Source of the DNA: an uncultured archaeon
GTDB taxonomy: Archaea > Asgardarchaeota > Lokiarchaeia > Sigyniarchaeales > SOKP01
Direction of reading: 5' to 3'
Assembly (NCBI GenBank): GCA_964632315.1
Contig: CAZWEM010000044.1
Coordinates: 1-41,750, forward strand
Length of the DNA: 41,750 nucleotides
In this document: piece after piece, positions 1 through 41,750 of the stretch
Layout of the letters: the number at the start of each line of letters is the position of its first letter
How positions within the stretch are numbered: the first letter of the stretch is position 1
The notes under the pieces: generated by a model
What the model was told of the DNA's origin: nothing
What the model saw: only the letters and a program-made list of their open reading frames with translations
Databases searched by the model: none
Translations under genes and position numbers: made by a program

Positions 1-262
1 TCGGCGAAGGATCCATTGACAATCCGTCCTTTACCTTTTCAGCTACAAAAGAAGTCGCTGCAGGCATGCTATTTGGCGAAGTAGAACTTGCTTAAAATCT
101 AAGCAGTGCTAAAACGCCACGAGTGCCTATATGGCAGGTGACATCACGGTCGAAGGTAACCTTCAAGACGCCATGGCCTTTCAAGAGATATGATCTGAGA
201 GTTTCTCTCGATTGACTCACATTGAACTGGCCTTGGAAGCTCTTGAAGACATGCTTGATTAA
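1..262 (+). CDS. SCP2 sterol-binding/lipid-transfer domain protein, copy A (5'-partial; spliced join(<1..84,114..190,221..262))
   Basis: Not in the ORF track. From nt 3, after removing 85..113 and 191..220, it reads GEGSIDNPSFTFSATKEVAAGMLFGEVDATSAYMAGDITVEGNLQDAMAFQEIIELALEALEDMLD*. This has the SCP2 C-terminal motif (G.vd...A.M.G.i.veG.l..A) and is collinear with copy B. Confidence 0.88.
85..113 (+). other. Putative BHB-type mRNA intron A1 (29 nt) in SCP2 copy A
   Basis: AACTTGCTTAAAATCTAAGCAGTGCTAAA is absent from copy B at the homologous codon and has an in-frame TAA at 93-95. Outer helix UGGCG(74-78)/CGCCA(115-119), central helix AAGU/GCUA (3 of 4 pairs), bulges AG|A and AA|A, internal hairpin UGCUUA-AAAUC-UAAGCA. 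Removal gives GTA G|AC GCC (V-D-A). Confidence 0.85.
131..258. repeat. 128-bp perfect inverted repeat, arm 1 (partner 1337..1464)
   Basis: 131..258 is the exact reverse complement of 1337..1464 (3' ends of the two SCP2 genes including the shared intron). Near-identity extends about 14 nt further, past the stop codon. Confidence 0.92.
191..220 (+). other. Putative BHB-type mRNA intron A2 (30 nt) in SCP2 copy A
   Basis: TGATCTGAGAGTTTCTCTCGATTGACTCAC begins with an in-frame TGA. Outer helix UUCAA(180-184)/UUGAA(222-226) extended by GGCC/GGCC, central helix GAGA/ACUC (3 of 4 pairs), bulges UA|U and AC|A, internal hairpin GAUC-U-GAGAG/CUCUC-GAUU. Removal gives QEI|IELALE. The junction could be shifted 1 nt (190..219) with the same protein. 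Confidence 0.8.
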
Positions 263-275
263 TTCAGTCTTTGAA

Positions 276-318
276 AAGAAAAGGATAAGATTTTAAACCT
301 TCTTTACATTTTTTTTTA
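276..318 (+). terminator. Probable terminator of SCP2 copy A
   Basis: Imperfect AAAGAAAAGG...CCTTCTTT hairpin followed by a 10-T run just after the stop codon. Confidence 0.45.
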
Positions 319-815
319 TCTCTACTATTTTTTAATATTATAATGAAATTAAAAAAGATTATAACTAACACAATATTAACTCGGAGGATACTCTTTCTAT
401 TAAATCTAATTTAACAACTTACTTCCTTAAACTGCGAAATATGCTGATGGATTTATTTGTAAAGATCATTTATTATTTAATTTGTTTAAACAGGATTTAT
501 TTAAATTAAAAAGGTGGGGGTTTATATATCCTCAGCAATAAAAAGTGGTAGCATAACATTATATCCAGCTCGTATCATTGTCCTCGATGCCATTTGCTTT
601 GGATCTATGAAAAACATTCCAGTATATATTGTAAGCTTAGTTTTGATTAAAAAATGATACATCTGCTGGAGAAAGAGGACATTATCGCAAATGAGGAATT
701 AAATGGCAATATTCAAACTCTGGACGATTATGGTGATGATTTCGTGTCTATGATACCCTTAATTATCGAATAGTAAAAAATTATAGTAAAAAGACATATA
801 GTAAAAAAACATTAA

Positions 816-1145
816 TTGGTATTGAAGATGGGTAAAAAAATATACAAAACCATATGGAGAAATAAATGGATTACTGCAGGAGCGAAATCCATAGATGATT
901 TCATAAACACTTTTGAGGGATTAGCAAATCATTTTCGAGAGTGGAAAGAATTAGGGATAACATTAGAAGAAGATGGCGGAGTTATAGATGATTATGCCAC
1001 ATTCTCTACTGATGATATGGATGTGGCTATTAAAGCAGGTTTTACCTTTTATTTTGGCGATAATAGAGAAAAGGAGTATCTCCTTACAATTGATGATGAA
1101 GAGATTGAAGTTCCCAAAGAAAAGCTAATGCAACACAAAAAATAA
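816..1145 (+). CDS. Hypothetical acidic protein (start may be ATG 828)
   Basis: 109-aa ORF with natural composition; no family recognised. Confidence 0.75.
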   Translation: MVLKMGKKIYKTIWRNKWITAGAKSIDDFINTFEGLANHFREWKELGITLEEDGGVIDDYATFSTDDMDVAIKAGFTFYFGDNREKEYLLTIDDEEIEVPKEKLMQHKK

Positions 1146-1332
1146 CGCTCTGAATATTTTATTCTCTTCTTTTAGTGCTCCTTTTGAAAAAGTGGATAAT
1201 TAAAATTTAACGCTTTATGCAAATCTCTGTAAATTGGTAATGATATTTGAAAATTTTAAAAAAAAATAAATTATTTCTTTTTTTCCAAGCGTATTAAGTA
1301 TTATTAGAAAAAAAAGAATTCGAAAGACTGAT

Positions 1333-1820
1333 TTAGTCAAGCATGTCTTCAAGAGCTTCCAAGGCCAGTTCAATGTGAGTCAATCGAGAGAAACTCTCAG
1401 ATCATATCTCTTGAAAGGCCATGGCGTCTTGAAGGTTACCTTCGACCGTGATGTCACCTGCCATTTACGCGATTAGCACGATTTGTTCTAATTATACGCA
1501 GAGGTGGCATCAACTTCACCGAAAAGCATTCCAGATCCAACTTCTTTCGTGGCAGAGAACGTGAAGGACGGATTGTCCACGTCGCCTTCACCGAATTCCA
1601 TGGTCCCATCATGTGCTTTAAGCCAGAACTTCTTATCGGCATCGGTGATAACCATTTGGATTACAATGTCCATGTCCTCTAACTCTTCTTTCAAGTCTTC
1701 ATTCTCTTCTGCGATCTGCTTGAAAAGCTCGAATACCTTTAAGGTATCCATTACATCAGATGCGGCAGCGCCGGCATCCATTTTTTCTTTCACTTCATTC
1801 ATTAATGCTTCGTCTACCAT
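1333..1820 (-). CDS. SCP2 sterol-binding/lipid-transfer domain protein, copy B (spliced complement(join(1333..1374,1405..1464,1494..1820)), 142 aa)
   Basis: The ORF track truncates it at ...DATSAYN* (1488). Removing 1465..1493 and 1375..1404 continues it as DATSAY-MAGDITVEGNLQDAMAFQEI-IELALEALEDMLD*, completing the SCP2 fold. Confidence 0.9.
1337..1464. repeat. 128-bp perfect inverted repeat, arm 2 (partner 131..258)
   Basis: Direct base-by-base comparison. Confidence 0.92.
1375..1404 (-). other. Putative BHB-type mRNA intron B2 (30 nt), identical to A2
   Basis: Same sequence, position and fold as 191..220; begins with an in-frame TGA. Confidence 0.8.
1465..1493 (-). other. Putative BHB-type mRNA intron B1 (29 nt) in SCP2 copy B
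   Basis: AATTAGAACAAATCGTGCTAATCGCGTAA sits between TAT and ATG, where copy A reads TAT ATG contiguously (128-133). In-frame TAG. Central helix GCGU/GCGU (2 G-C, 2 G-U), bulges AU|A and AA|A, internal hairpin AUUAG-a-AC-AAAUC-GU-g-CUAAU. The outer helix is relaxed (UGCCA/UGGCA or CACCU/AGGUG). Confidence 0.85.
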
Positions 1821-2320
1821 TTTGATTTATCGACCTTTTAATCTTATTTTGAAGTTTATAATGATTTGTAAGTATTCATCCCAAAGACAAATACTATTTA
1901 ATATAAGATATATCAATATAAAAAGGTTATATTTCTCATGCTCTTTATTTCCCGTTATGATGAGAGATTTTGCGAGGAATTGGGGTTTTTTGCCAAAAAA
2001 GTACGAAATTTAAGATTGAGAAAAGATTTTGTCGAGCTTTTAAAGATATTTGGTATAGTCTGTAGACTTAATCGTGATCTTCTAATTCACATTTGCACTA
2101 AGAAATTTTTTACATTATTTTATCATATAATTGTTAGTTTAAAAACAAAATGTTATCTACTTTTTCAAATGAGAGCACCATGGAGGAGGGATAAAAAATA
2201 AGGATGATATAACTAGATTTTTTTCCCACGCTTGCGACAAGAATGAATAAGAAAATTTTCTTTCAAATTTATTTTTAAATAAGAGTCATCTTTGAAAGCA
2301 TTTTCTTCGACTTTGAATAG

Positions 2321-40741: not shown

Positions 40742-41750
40742 ATGTCAGAAGATCCATACGCAACCAAACCATGGTTGAAAAATTATGATCCAAAGGTACC
40801 ACCGAGCATTGATTATCCAAAGATTAACATTTATGAATTTCTTGATAATTCTGCCGACGATTTTGGGAGTAGAACTGCAATTTGGTTTATGAAAAACAAG
40901 ATATCGTATAAAAAGTTGAAAGAATTATCAGAACGATTAGCGACTGCACTTGTCGACCTAGGGGTTAAAAAGGGAGATGTAGTTGCAATTATGATTCCCA
41001 ATTTCCCACAATTTATCATCAGTTATTATGGAATATTGAAAGCTGGTGCTATCGTGACTGCTTGTAGTGTATTGCACACTGAACACGAATTAGCTTATCA
41101 AGTAAACGATGCTGGTGCGGAAATACTAATCGCTTGGGATAACCAAATTGAAAAAATCCAAAAAATTCAGGACAGAACTAGATTAAGACACGTTATTATC
41201 ACTAATGTGTTCGATTATTCACCAATGGCACCACGCAATCCTCCAGAGATCTCTGGAACAAAACAATTTCTAAATTTAGTGAACAATACAAAGCCAAATC
41301 CACCTAAATTTGAAACAGATGTCAATAGTGTTGCTTGTCTTCAATATACTGGTGGAACTACGGGTCTTCCTAAAGGAGCGATGCTTACCCACCGCAATAT
41401 AGTATCAAACTGCATAGCTGTAGGTACATGGGCTGGTGATGAATTTAGAAGAGGTAAGGAGACAATTCTAACAAACTTACCATTATTTCATATCTATGGC
41501 CAAACAGTTTGCATGAATCTCCACATCTATATGGGATCTACAATTGCTTTAAACCCAGATCCACGCGATCAGAAATCATTGTTTGAAATGATAAAACAAA
41601 CCAGTCCTACCATGTTCCCAGGAGTTCCAACAATGTACATGAGACTTCTTGAAAGAGATGATCTCGAGGATTATGCTAAGGATATGAGATCAATACGAGT
41701 TTGCAATACAGGCGCAGCTGCTATGCCTCCTGAAGTTTTAAAAGAATTTG
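40742..41750 (+). CDS. fadD: Long-chain acyl-CoA synthetase / AMP-binding enzyme (3'-partial)
   Basis: Not in the ORF track because it runs off the window. MSEDPYATKPWLKNYD..., AMP-binding motif LQYTGGTTGLPKGAMLTHRN, LPLFHIYG and FPGVPTMY. Confidence 0.9.
   Translation, partial: MSEDPYATKPWLKNYDPKVPPSIDYPKINIYEFLDNSADDFGSRTAIWFMKNKISYKKLKELSERLATALVDLGVKKGDVVAIMIPNFPQFIISYYGILKAGAIVTACSVLHTEHELAYQVNDAGAEILIAWDNQIEKIQKIQDRTRLRHVIITNVFDYSPMAPRNPPEISGTKQFLNLVNNTKPNPPKFETDVNSVACLQYTGGTTGLPKGAMLTHRNIVSNCIAVGTWAGDEFRRGKETILTNLPLFHIYGQTVCMNLHIYMGSTIALNPDPRDQKSLFEMIKQTSPTMFPGVPTMYMRLLERDDLEDYAKDMRSIRVCNTGAAAMPPEVLKEF

What the first reader, a model, noticed from the sequence alone, without database searches (positions are those of the whole stretch)
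1..1820. Protein-coding genes with multiple tiny BHB-type introns: two SCP2 lipid-carrier paralogs, two introns each
SEEN: both SCP2 genes look truncated, but each has two 29-30 nt inserts (85..113 and 191..220; 1465..1493 and 1375..1404). Each insert carries an in-frame stop and forms a hairpin, and precise removal restores a continuous SCP2 protein (142 aa for copy B). For all three distinct introns I can draw a 4-nt central helix flanked by two 3-nt bulges, and cutting after the second bulge nucleotide gives the frame-restoring junction (G|AC, TAT|ATG, ATA|ATT). The helices are relaxed, with an A-A mismatch or G-U pairs. Copy A lacks B1 and copy B lacks A1, so those two boundaries are also fixed by paralog alignment. 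The upstream exons differ mostly at synonymous sites, which argues against pseudogenes. KNOWN: the archaeal splicing endonuclease EndA cuts BHB motifs and RtcB ligates the products; the textbook mRNA case is the single crenarchaeal cbf5 intron. INFERENCE: multi-intron mRNAs are spliced by the tRNA machinery in a probable Asgard archaeon. That bears on the origin of eukaryotic mRNA introns, and gene callers would miss such genes.
Basis: partly seen in the sequence, partly recalled or inferred. Interest (0 to 1): 0.97.

Follow-up and report, generated by a model that had tools for sequence, protein, structure and literature searches.

The report
tRNA-type mini-introns in Asgard SCP2 genes
Two neighbouring lipid-carrier (SCP2) genes of an Asgard archaeon are each broken by two roughly 30-base inserts shaped like tRNA introns; comparison with many relatives shows the genes are still under selection, so their messages almost certainly have to be cut and re-joined, which in print is documented inside the coding sequence of only one archaeal gene (cbf5).

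Summary
Copy B (window 1820-1333, minus strand) and copy A (C67:17121-17401, then window 1-262) carry inserts at 1465-1493, 1375-1404, 85-113 and 191-220. Each puts a stop in frame.

- **Junctions:** removal gives two 142-aa SCP2 proteins, identical to P0001 and P0030 from an intron-less sister strain. About 45 uninterrupted genus orthologs read straight across all junctions.
- **Not pseudogenes:** copy B differs from the intron-less allele at 62 bases with 0 amino-acid changes. In the exons downstream of the stops, 18 of 19 differences are at third codon positions.
- **Not artefacts:** the same three sites are occupied in other assemblies (G057, G023, G053, L185), with compensatory stem changes.
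- **BHB fit:** the junctions fit relaxed BHB motifs far more often than chance.
- **Splicing machinery:** the genome encodes two EndA subunits and RtcB.
- **Genome-wide:** a motif-free census found five more interrupted genes, including TBP and uvrA.

Splicing is therefore a strong inference, not shown.

This scan has already reported the same phenomenon in at least 85 genomes, including other genes of this genome. In the papers I could search, only cbf5 and one Haloferax 5' UTR intron are documented. The proposed link to spliceosomal intron origin is not supported.

The parts
1..84 (+). SCP2 copy A, 3' end of exon 1 (the gene starts on C67:17121; the contigs overlap by 55 bases)
85..113 (+). 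Intron A1, 29 nt (85-113 and 86-114 give the same product). It carries an in-frame TAA. Outer helix 75-78:115-118. Central helix 79-82:108-111 (A.A, A-U, G-C, U.G). Bulges 83-85 and 112-114. Inner hairpin 86-88:105-107 plus 90-94:100-104.
   Evidence: The G057 homolog (L182:1355-1383) has two compensatory stem pairs.
114..190 (+). SCP2 copy A, exon 2
191..220 (+). Intron I2 in copy A, 30 nt, starts with an in-frame TGA. Outer helix 181-184:222-225. Central helix 185-188:215-218 (G-C, A-U, G-C, A.A). Bulges 189-191 and 219-221. Inner hairpin 197-201:205-209.
   Evidence: The same site is occupied in G023 (L088:1546-1575) and G057 (L182:1249-1278).
221..262 (+). SCP2 copy A, exon 3 with stop codon (260-262)
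1494..1820 (-). SCP2 copy B, exon 1 (109 codons)
1465..1493 (-). Intron B1, 29 nt, in-frame TAG. Central helix 1499-1496:1470-1467 (G.U, C-G, G-C, U.G). The 5' bulge is 1495-1493. The 3' bulge is 1466-1464 (4 nt in the MFE fold). Inner hairpin 1492-1488:1476-1472. The minimum-free-energy fold is itself the BHB.
   Evidence: Homologs: L185:1828-1856 (one compensatory pair); the same site is occupied in both G053 copies.
1405..1464 (-). SCP2 copy B, exon 2 (20 codons)
   Evidence: 12 of 12 differences from the intron-less allele are at third codon positions
1375..1404 (-). Intron I2 in copy B, identical to 191-220
1333..1374 (-). SCP2 copy B, exon 3 with stop codon (1333-1335)

Best explanation
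The four inserts (three distinct sequences) are bulge-helix-bulge mini-introns in the pre-mRNAs of two SCP2 paralogs.

Proposed mechanism: in the transcript, the last exon bases pair with the 3' end of the insert to form a roughly 4-bp central helix. A 3-nt bulge sits on each strand. An outer exon-exon helix and an inner intron hairpin flank the motif. The heterotetramer-type splicing endonuclease (two EndA paralogs in this genome) cuts after the second base of each bulge. RtcB joins the exons and probably circularises the 29-30-nt intron. Only the doubly spliced message encodes the complete 142-aa SCP2 fold.

Shown here: the inserts, the exact junctions, their BHB-compatible geometry, selection on the interrupted genes and on the intron stems, and the presence of the enzymes.

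Inferred: that cleavage and ligation actually take place, and by these enzymes.

Evolution: insert 2 was spread between the paralogs by gene conversion. The introns are gained, lost or moved by recombination quickly, because a sister strain with about 99% identical flanks has none.
For: 1. **Exact junctions.**
- About 45 uninterrupted orthologs in some 25 genomes of the genus read ...GEVDATSAYMAGDITVEGNLQDAMAFQEIIELALEA... across all three sites.
- P0001 and P0030, from the intron-less strain contig L184, are identical to the predicted spliced products.
- An intron-less paralog at C32:31504-31091 aligns gap-free across the junctions.

2. **The fold is restored.** The spliced sequence matches Pfam SCP2 over profile positions 1-100 of 101 at 52.9 bits. 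Exon 1 alone gives 28 bits.

3. **Selection on the interrupted genes.**
- Copy B differs from L184_B at 62 bases with 0 amino-acid changes. In exons 2 and 3, 18 of 19 differences are at third codon positions.
- Copy A against copy B gives omega 0.03-0.06.

4. **Independent assemblies carry introns at the same sites.**
- A1 site: G057.
- B1 site: L185, L186 and both G053 copies (29, 30 and 32 nt).
- I2 site: G023 and G057.
- A fourth site occurs in L190.

5. **Covariation.**
- A1 in G000 against G057: 6 changes, of which 4 form two compensatory pairs and 2 are unpaired.
- B1 in G000 against L185: one compensatory pair, the other two intron changes unpaired.
- I2 Cb changes ACUC to UCUU and keeps pairing with GAGA.

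6. **BHB at ortholog-defined junctions.** The central helix has at least 3 of 4 pairs at 8 of 8 sites, and 4 of 4 at four of them. Background rates are 0.27 and 0.04.

7. **Machinery.** Two EndA-domain genes and RtcB are present. Asgard EndA is reported to be the broad-specificity (alpha-beta)2 type (PMC5829648).

8. **Genomic context.** ARAGORN finds introns in 18 of 29 tRNA genes. A motif-free census found similar 29-38-nt inserts in five further genes.

9. **The cut rule is the published one.** Cleavage between the second and third bulge residues was used and confirmed for cbf5 (PMC2738675).
Against:
- The motifs are relaxed:
  - A1 and I2 need an A.A mismatch in the central helix, and their minimum-free-energy folds predict cuts that would break the frame.
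  - The B1 outer helix is offset by one base.
  - The outer helices are short (1-4 pairs).
- BHB-like patterns are frequent by chance in this AT-rich genome.
- One of the other inserts found (uvrA, C12:88273-88302) has no canonical BHB in the required register. Either the enzyme is very tolerant or not all inserts use this route.
- The intron-less alleles P0001 and P0002 come from a different strain (saturated synonymous differences), so they are not spliced RNA.
Confidence: 0.85

Rival explanations
1. The interrupted genes are recently inactivated pseudogenes, and the inserts are junk insertions that are never removed.
For: Every insert puts a stop in frame. A sister strain and most of the genus have intact genes. 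Other, more distant SCP2 paralogs exist in the genome.
Against: - There are 0 amino-acid changes against 62 base differences from the intron-less allele, and 18 of 19 differences in the exons behind the stops are at third codon positions.
- Interrupted alleles persist in at least five other assemblies and species.
- The intron stems show compensatory changes.
- Both copies would have to be dead at once.
- Essential genes such as TBP carry the same kind of insert.
Confidence: 0.03
2. The inserts are removed or skipped by another route. Candidates are translational bypassing (as in T4 gene 60 or the Magnusiomyces mitochondrial byps; from my own knowledge) or an RNA-processing enzyme other than EndA.
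For: The inserts have a hairpin and a stop codon at the 5' end, as bypass elements do. The size range (29-32 nt) is narrow. The uvrA insert lacks a canonical BHB.
Against: - Matching take-off and landing codons are absent for A1 (GTA) and B1 (TAT) in the sequence.
- For I2, a hop from ATA to ATT would lose one Ile that all orthologs have.
- The junctions coincide with the BHB cut rule far more often than chance.
Confidence: 0.06
3. The inserts stay in the mRNA and the cell uses the truncated proteins (104-129 aa). Alternatively, partial splicing acts as an on/off or isoform switch.
For: Stops lie 0-3 codons into each insert. Exon 1 alone still passes the Pfam SCP2 threshold at 28 bits.
Against: The downstream exons are under frame-specific purifying selection. 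The exact reading frame is restored by removal in every allele. A pure truncation model explains neither. A regulatory layer on top of splicing is not excluded.
Confidence: 0.04
4. The inserts are assembly or sequencing artefacts, or chimeras at a contig end.
For: Copy A lies on a contig break. The genome is a metagenome-assembled genome with 8.6% estimated contamination.
Against: Homologous inserts occur at the same sites in independent assemblies from ENA, JGI and NCBI. Copy B lies inside the contig. The break is a plain 55-base k-mer overlap.
Confidence: 0.01

Closest known systems
cbf5 pre-mRNA intron of Crenarchaeota (Watanabe 2002; Yoshinari 2006; Yokobori 2009, PMC2738675)
   Same: A short BHB intron inside a protein-coding sequence. 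The motif is relaxed. The cut falls between bulge residues 2 and 3. The host has a heteromeric EndA. The distribution among relatives is patchy, implying gain and loss.
   Different: cbf5 has a single intron at one conserved site, and its splicing was confirmed by cDNA and in-vitro cleavage. Here there are two introns per gene in two paralogs, four sites within about 80 bases of one gene family, presence/absence between strains, a different phylum, and no RNA proof.
BHB intron in the 5' UTR of Haloferax volcanii HVO_1309 (PMC7714728)
   Same: An mRNA substrate of the splicing endonuclease outside tRNA and rRNA.
   Different: That intron is 46 nt, lies in the untranslated leader, and was shown by circRNA-seq and in-vitro cleavage. 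It does not interrupt a reading frame.
Multi-intron tRNA genes of Asgard archaea and Thermoproteales (bioRxiv 10.64898/2026.10.13.758758; PMC5829648)
   Same: The same presumed enzymes, the same motif family, many non-canonical positions, and repeated recent gains. This genome also has many interrupted tRNA genes.
   Different: The host RNA here is a message. The cut must therefore be exact to the base to keep the frame, and unspliced RNA yields a truncated protein.
Unconventional HAC1/XBP1 mRNA splicing in eukaryotes (Ire1 cleavage, RtcB ligation in animals; from my own knowledge, and PMC8718801 for RtcB)
   Same: Protein-enzymatic removal of a short intron from an mRNA, with ligation by the tRNA ligase.
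   Different: A different nuclease (Ire1) and different stem-loop signals. It is a regulated stress response. There is no evidence of regulation here.
Translational bypass elements (T4 gene 60; Magnusiomyces byps; from my own knowledge)
   Same: Inserts of 27-55 nt with stops and hairpins in otherwise intact genes.
   Different: They need matched take-off and landing codons, which are absent here. They are not removed from the RNA.

Membership tests
Archaeal BHB (EndA-type) intron | A central helix of 4 bp flanked by two 3-nt bulges on opposite strands | tested here: met
   Met in relaxed form. At the ortholog-defined junctions the central helix has 3 of 4 pairs (A1, I2) or 4 of 4 pairs (B1). 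Homologs in G053, G057, G023 and L185 have 3-4 of 4. Only for B1 is the BHB also the minimum-free-energy fold.
Archaeal BHB (EndA-type) intron | Cutting after the second base of each bulge yields the true exon junction | tested here: met
   The junctions were fixed independently by about 45 intron-less orthologs and by a structure-blind search. They coincide with the rule at 8 of 8 independent sites, against 0.27 per site by chance. One further insert (uvrA) does not fit.
Archaeal BHB (EndA-type) intron | Flanking helices h and h' of at least 2 bp | tested here: met
   The inner hairpin has 3-4 of the first 4 pairs in all cases (up to 10 bp). The outer helix has 4 pairs (A1, I2) or 2 pairs, offset by one base (B1).
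Archaeal BHB (EndA-type) intron | The host encodes a splicing endonuclease able to cut relaxed motifs, and the RtcB ligase | tested here: met
   Two PF01974 genes (C28:34797-35420 and C8:40834-41469) and RtcB (C26:2315-3622) are present. The L1 loop that confers broad specificity (PMC5829648) was not examined.
Archaeal BHB (EndA-type) intron | The intron is absent from the mature RNA, and an excised linear or circular intron exists | not testable with these tools
The intron-less contigs L184 and L191 are another strain's DNA, not cDNA.
SCP2 sterol/lipid carrier (Pfam PF02036) | A full-length match to the domain profile | tested here: met
   P0001 and P0030, which are identical to the spliced products, match residues 33-130 to profile positions 1-100 of 101, with E-values of 5e-14 and 1.5e-13. 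The biochemical function was not tested.
Translational bypass element | Matching take-off and landing codons flanking the gap | tested here: not met
   From the sequence, there is no GTN landing codon in the right place for A1 and no TAY landing codon for B1. For I2 a hop would drop a conserved Ile.
Miniature transposon (MITE) or other repeated mobile insert | Multiple related copies in the genome | tested here: not met
   Each insert is single-copy in the 4.45-Mb genome, apart from I2 in the two paralogs.

The most novel reading that the evidence does not exclude
Loki-type Asgard archaea carry a sizeable, fast-turning-over population of EndA/RtcB-spliced mini-introns in protein-coding genes. 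The census here suggests about 1% of genes in this genome, several with two or more introns. These introns differ even between strains with 99% identical flanks, and they move between alleles and paralogs by recombination. On this reading, enzymatic mRNA splicing is a routine part of gene expression in the closest prokaryotic relatives of eukaryotes, and standard gene calling systematically mis-annotates these genes.
Probability: 0.7. Interest if true: 0.88.

Novelty: new variant of a known kind. Interest (0 to 1): 0.8.

Why it matters
In the papers I could search, splicing inside an archaeal coding sequence is documented only for cbf5 (PMC2738675; PMC7714728 says so explicitly).

This locus adds several things:
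- Two introns per gene, in two paralogs.
- Four intron sites within about 80 bases of one gene family.
- Introns shared across species, with compensatory changes in their stems.
- A sister strain without any of the introns.

That makes it a compact natural system for three questions. How are BHB introns gained, copied by gene conversion and lost? How relaxed a motif will the Asgard endonuclease accept? How much of Asgard proteomes is mis-annotated? Truncated 104-130-aa SCP2 entries are already in public databases.

It does not by itself inform the origin of spliceosomal introns.

Tried and rejected
- **P0001 and P0002 as possible cDNA:** they are identical to the spliced product, but their contigs (L184, L191) differ from the window at saturated synonymous sites and in gene order. 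They are therefore another strain's DNA, not spliced RNA.
- **Genome-wide BHB plus ORF-restoration scan:** 413,406 motif hits and 12,800 that restore an ORF. This was too noisy to use. I replaced it with a motif-free comparison against 1.3 Mb of relative G008.
- **Rfam and ARAGORN on the window:** nothing found.
- **Automatic MAFFT gap placement:** it put three introns in the wrong register. I replaced it with a protein-identity search.
- I reran it from coordinates.
- **Sequence relatedness of the inserts:** a search for similarity among the inserts, or to other places in the genome, found none.
- **A1 and B1 as one slid intron:** they match at only 13 of 29 positions by eye, so I treat them as separate introns.
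- **Literature:** searches for a published report of Asgard mRNA BHB introns found none in the held library.
Full report
**What is there**

The window is the start of contig C44 of a 4.45-Mb, 33% GC metagenome-assembled genome. Its closest relatives are Promethearchaeota (Loki-type Asgard) MAGs.

Copy B of the SCP2 gene lies on the minus strand at 1820-1333. Copy A runs off the contig start. Its first 281 bases are on C67:17121-17401, which overlaps the window by a 55-base k-mer join.

Removing 1465-1493 and 1375-1404 gives a 142-aa ORF, and copy A behaves the same way.

From ATGGCAGG to the stop, insert 2 included, the two copies are 100% identical. Upstream they are about 80% identical. The identical tract begins exactly at the 3' edge of B1. 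This is what a gene-conversion tract stopped by the heterology of an insert would look like. Insert 2 is therefore one intron in two copies.

**Are the junctions right?**

- An intron-less paralog in the same genome (C32:31504-31091, 48% identical) aligns without gaps across all three sites.
- About 45 orthologs in some 25 genomes of the genus are uninterrupted. They read ...GEVDATSAYMAGDITVEGNLQDAMAFQEIIELALEA..., which is exactly the predicted spliced sequence.
- The protein database holds P0001 and P0030, which are letter-for-letter the predicted spliced products of B and A.
- A structure-blind search over all removable 26-35-nt segments recovers the same junctions.
- The spliced sequence matches Pfam SCP2 over profile positions 1-100 of 101 at 52.9 bits. 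Exon 1 alone gives 28 bits.

**Are the genes alive?**

P0001 and P0030 sit on a JGI contig (L184; the same allele is in L191). Its flanks are 99.3% and 98.6% identical to C67 and C44. It has no inserts, has the two copies in tandem, and lacks window ~320-1250.

Against that allele, copy B shows 62 base differences and no amino-acid change. In exons 2 and 3, behind the in-frame stops, 18 of 19 differences are at third codon positions of the splice-predicted frame. Copy A against copy B gives omega 0.03-0.06. Decaying pseudogenes would not look like this.

These contigs are not spliced RNA, because the synonymous differences show they come from another allele.

**Are the inserts selected as RNA structures?**

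Other assemblies carry inserts at the same sites:

| Site | Where else it is occupied |
|---|---|
| A1 | G057 (L182:1355-1383; also in two JGI samples, L187 and L189) |
| B1 | L185 and L186 (29 nt); both copies of G053 (30 and 32 nt, unrelated hairpin sequences) |
| I2 | G023 (L088:1546-1575) and G057 (L182:1249-1278), both 30 nt and about half identical to the window's |
| Fourth site, between QDA and MAF | L190:1871-1900 |

- **A1 in G000 against G057:** six changes. Four make two compensatory pairs (A-U to G-C, C-G to U-A) and two are unpaired.
- **B1 in G000 against L185:** one compensatory pair (A-U to C-G), and the other two intron changes are unpaired.
- **I2:** the strand that pairs with the exon changes from ACUC to UCUU and still pairs with GAGA.

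**Does the BHB rule fit?**

A canonical motif reads: outer helix, then the 4-nt central strand, then a 3-nt bulge cut after base 2. The inner hairpin follows, then the complementary 4 nt, a second 3-nt bulge cut after base 2, and the outer helix again. This is the same rule used for cbf5 (PMC2738675).

At junctions fixed by orthologs, the central helix has at least 3 of 4 pairs at 8 of 8 independent sites. These are A1, B1, I2, two in a C11 gene, C38, TBP and L190. It has 4 of 4 pairs at four of them. The random expectation at the same lengths is 0.27 and 0.04. Adding the inner helix lowers the background to 0.17 per site, or about 1e-6 for all eight.

The motifs are relaxed:
- A1 and I2 need an A.A mismatch, and their minimum-free-energy folds would cut out of frame.
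- The B1 outer helix is offset by one base.
- A BHB-like pattern alone is weak evidence in this genome. The coincidence with independently known junctions is what carries the weight.

**Machinery and context**

The genome has two EndA-domain genes and RtcB. Asgard EndA is reported as the (alpha-beta)2 type with the loop that confers broad specificity (PMC5829648).

ARAGORN finds only 29 tRNA genes, 18 of them with introns. This agrees with a recent preprint on heavily interrupted Asgard tRNA genes (10.64898/2026.10.13.758758).

I ran a motif-free census with ORFs from 1.3 Mb of relative G008 against this genome, about 630 orthologs. It recovers the SCP2 inserts as a positive control and finds five more interrupted genes:
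- a CWGCHQSLL hydrogenase-like gene with two inserts (C11:40886-40916 and 40823-40851);
- C38:11558-11587;
- TBP (C18:19083-19112);
- C16:66180-66217 (38 nt);
- uvrA (C12:88273-88302).

The uvrA insert lacks a canonical BHB in register. The other 32 window genes that have orthologs carry no inserts. Each insert is single-copy in the genome, so they are not a repeated mobile family.

**Evolution**

On a quick gene tree (FastTree, midpoint-rooted, support not assessed), intron-bearing alleles fall in at least four separate places, next to intron-less sisters. Together with the intron-less sister strain, this means rapid gain, loss or transfer by recombination. I did not resolve which.

**Known or new?**

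The held literature documents coding-sequence BHB introns only for cbf5 (PMC2738675) and a 5' UTR intron in Haloferax (PMC7714728, which states that cbf5 is the only other example). Searches for Asgard mRNA introns found nothing.

This scan has reported the same phenomenon before. It appears in at least 85 genomes and in other genes of this genome: histone, gyrB, TBP, leuS, acetyl-CoA synthetase, E2, thiolase and a chelatase. I found the TBP insert independently.

**Verdict**

Splicing by EndA and RtcB is the best explanation (about 0.85) but has not been shown at the RNA level. The suggested link to the origin of eukaryotic introns is not supported by anything found here.

Noticed in passing
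G000 contigs outside the window: C11:40886-40916 and 40823-40851 (-), C38:11558-11587 (-), C18:19083-19112 (+), C16:66180-66217 (+), C12:88273-88302 (+): Five more genes carry 29-38-nt stop- or frameshift-bearing inserts that are absent from relative G008. They are a CWGCHQSLL hydrogenase-like gene (two inserts), an unnamed gene, TBP, a gene with a GAIFGQTEGLL motif, and uvrA. Four have a central helix with 3-4 of 4 pairs in register. The uvrA insert does not.
   Followed up: partly
window 263-2300, compared with L184 (JGI 3300076654, Ga0665409_0027221): There is a structural polymorphism between near-identical strains. In L184 the two SCP2 genes are in tandem and intron-less. In the window, the segment ~1252-2244 (copy B plus an 87-aa ORF) is inverted. 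About 900 bases (~320-1250), with an orphan 109-aa ORF (816-1145, no Pfam hit), have no counterpart in any fetched relative or elsewhere in the genome.
   Followed up: partly
window 131-262 and 1333-1464: A 130-base tract is 100% identical between the paralogs and starts exactly at the 3' edge of intron B1. It looks like a gene-conversion tract that carried intron I2 from one copy to the other and stopped at the heterology.
   Followed up: partly
L190:1871-1900 (GCA_019894755.1, JAGXNW010000490.1): A fourth intron site occurs in the same SCP2 family, between ...LQDA and MAFQ.... The insert is 30 nt with a 10-bp inner hairpin. The 3' 80 bases of this gene therefore hold four different intron positions across the genus.
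   Followed up: partly
L181 (G053:C29), 1641-1670 (+) and 2136-2167 (-): Both SCP2 copies of G053 have an insert at the B1 site. The two differ in length (30 and 32 nt) and have unrelated hairpin sequences. Only the strand pairing with the exon GCGU and the AA bulge are shared. This means either very fast divergence or repeated insertion at one site.
   Followed up: no
window 1494-1499 and 1465-1470: At B1, the last six exon bases (GCGTAT) are nearly repeated by the last six intron bases (GCGTAA). The central helix GCGU:GCGU is self-complementary. This resembles a short target-site duplication and may hint at how the insert arose.
   Followed up: no
protein database hits (P0006, P0017, P0032, P0041, P0073, P0077, P0079, P0081, P0083, P0084): Many public SCP2 entries from Promethearchaeota are 104-130 aa long rather than 142-144. 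These are the lengths expected if gene callers stop at an A1-, B1- or I2-site intron. The ones I fetched (P0006, P0081, P0084) did contain inserts.
   Followed up: partly
whole genome G000: ARAGORN reports only 29 tRNA genes in a 99.5%-complete genome. Of these, 18 have introns. Three calls have implausible introns of 281-1340 nt, and one is a 'stop' tRNA. Many tRNA genes are probably missed because of multiple or non-canonical introns.
   Followed up: no
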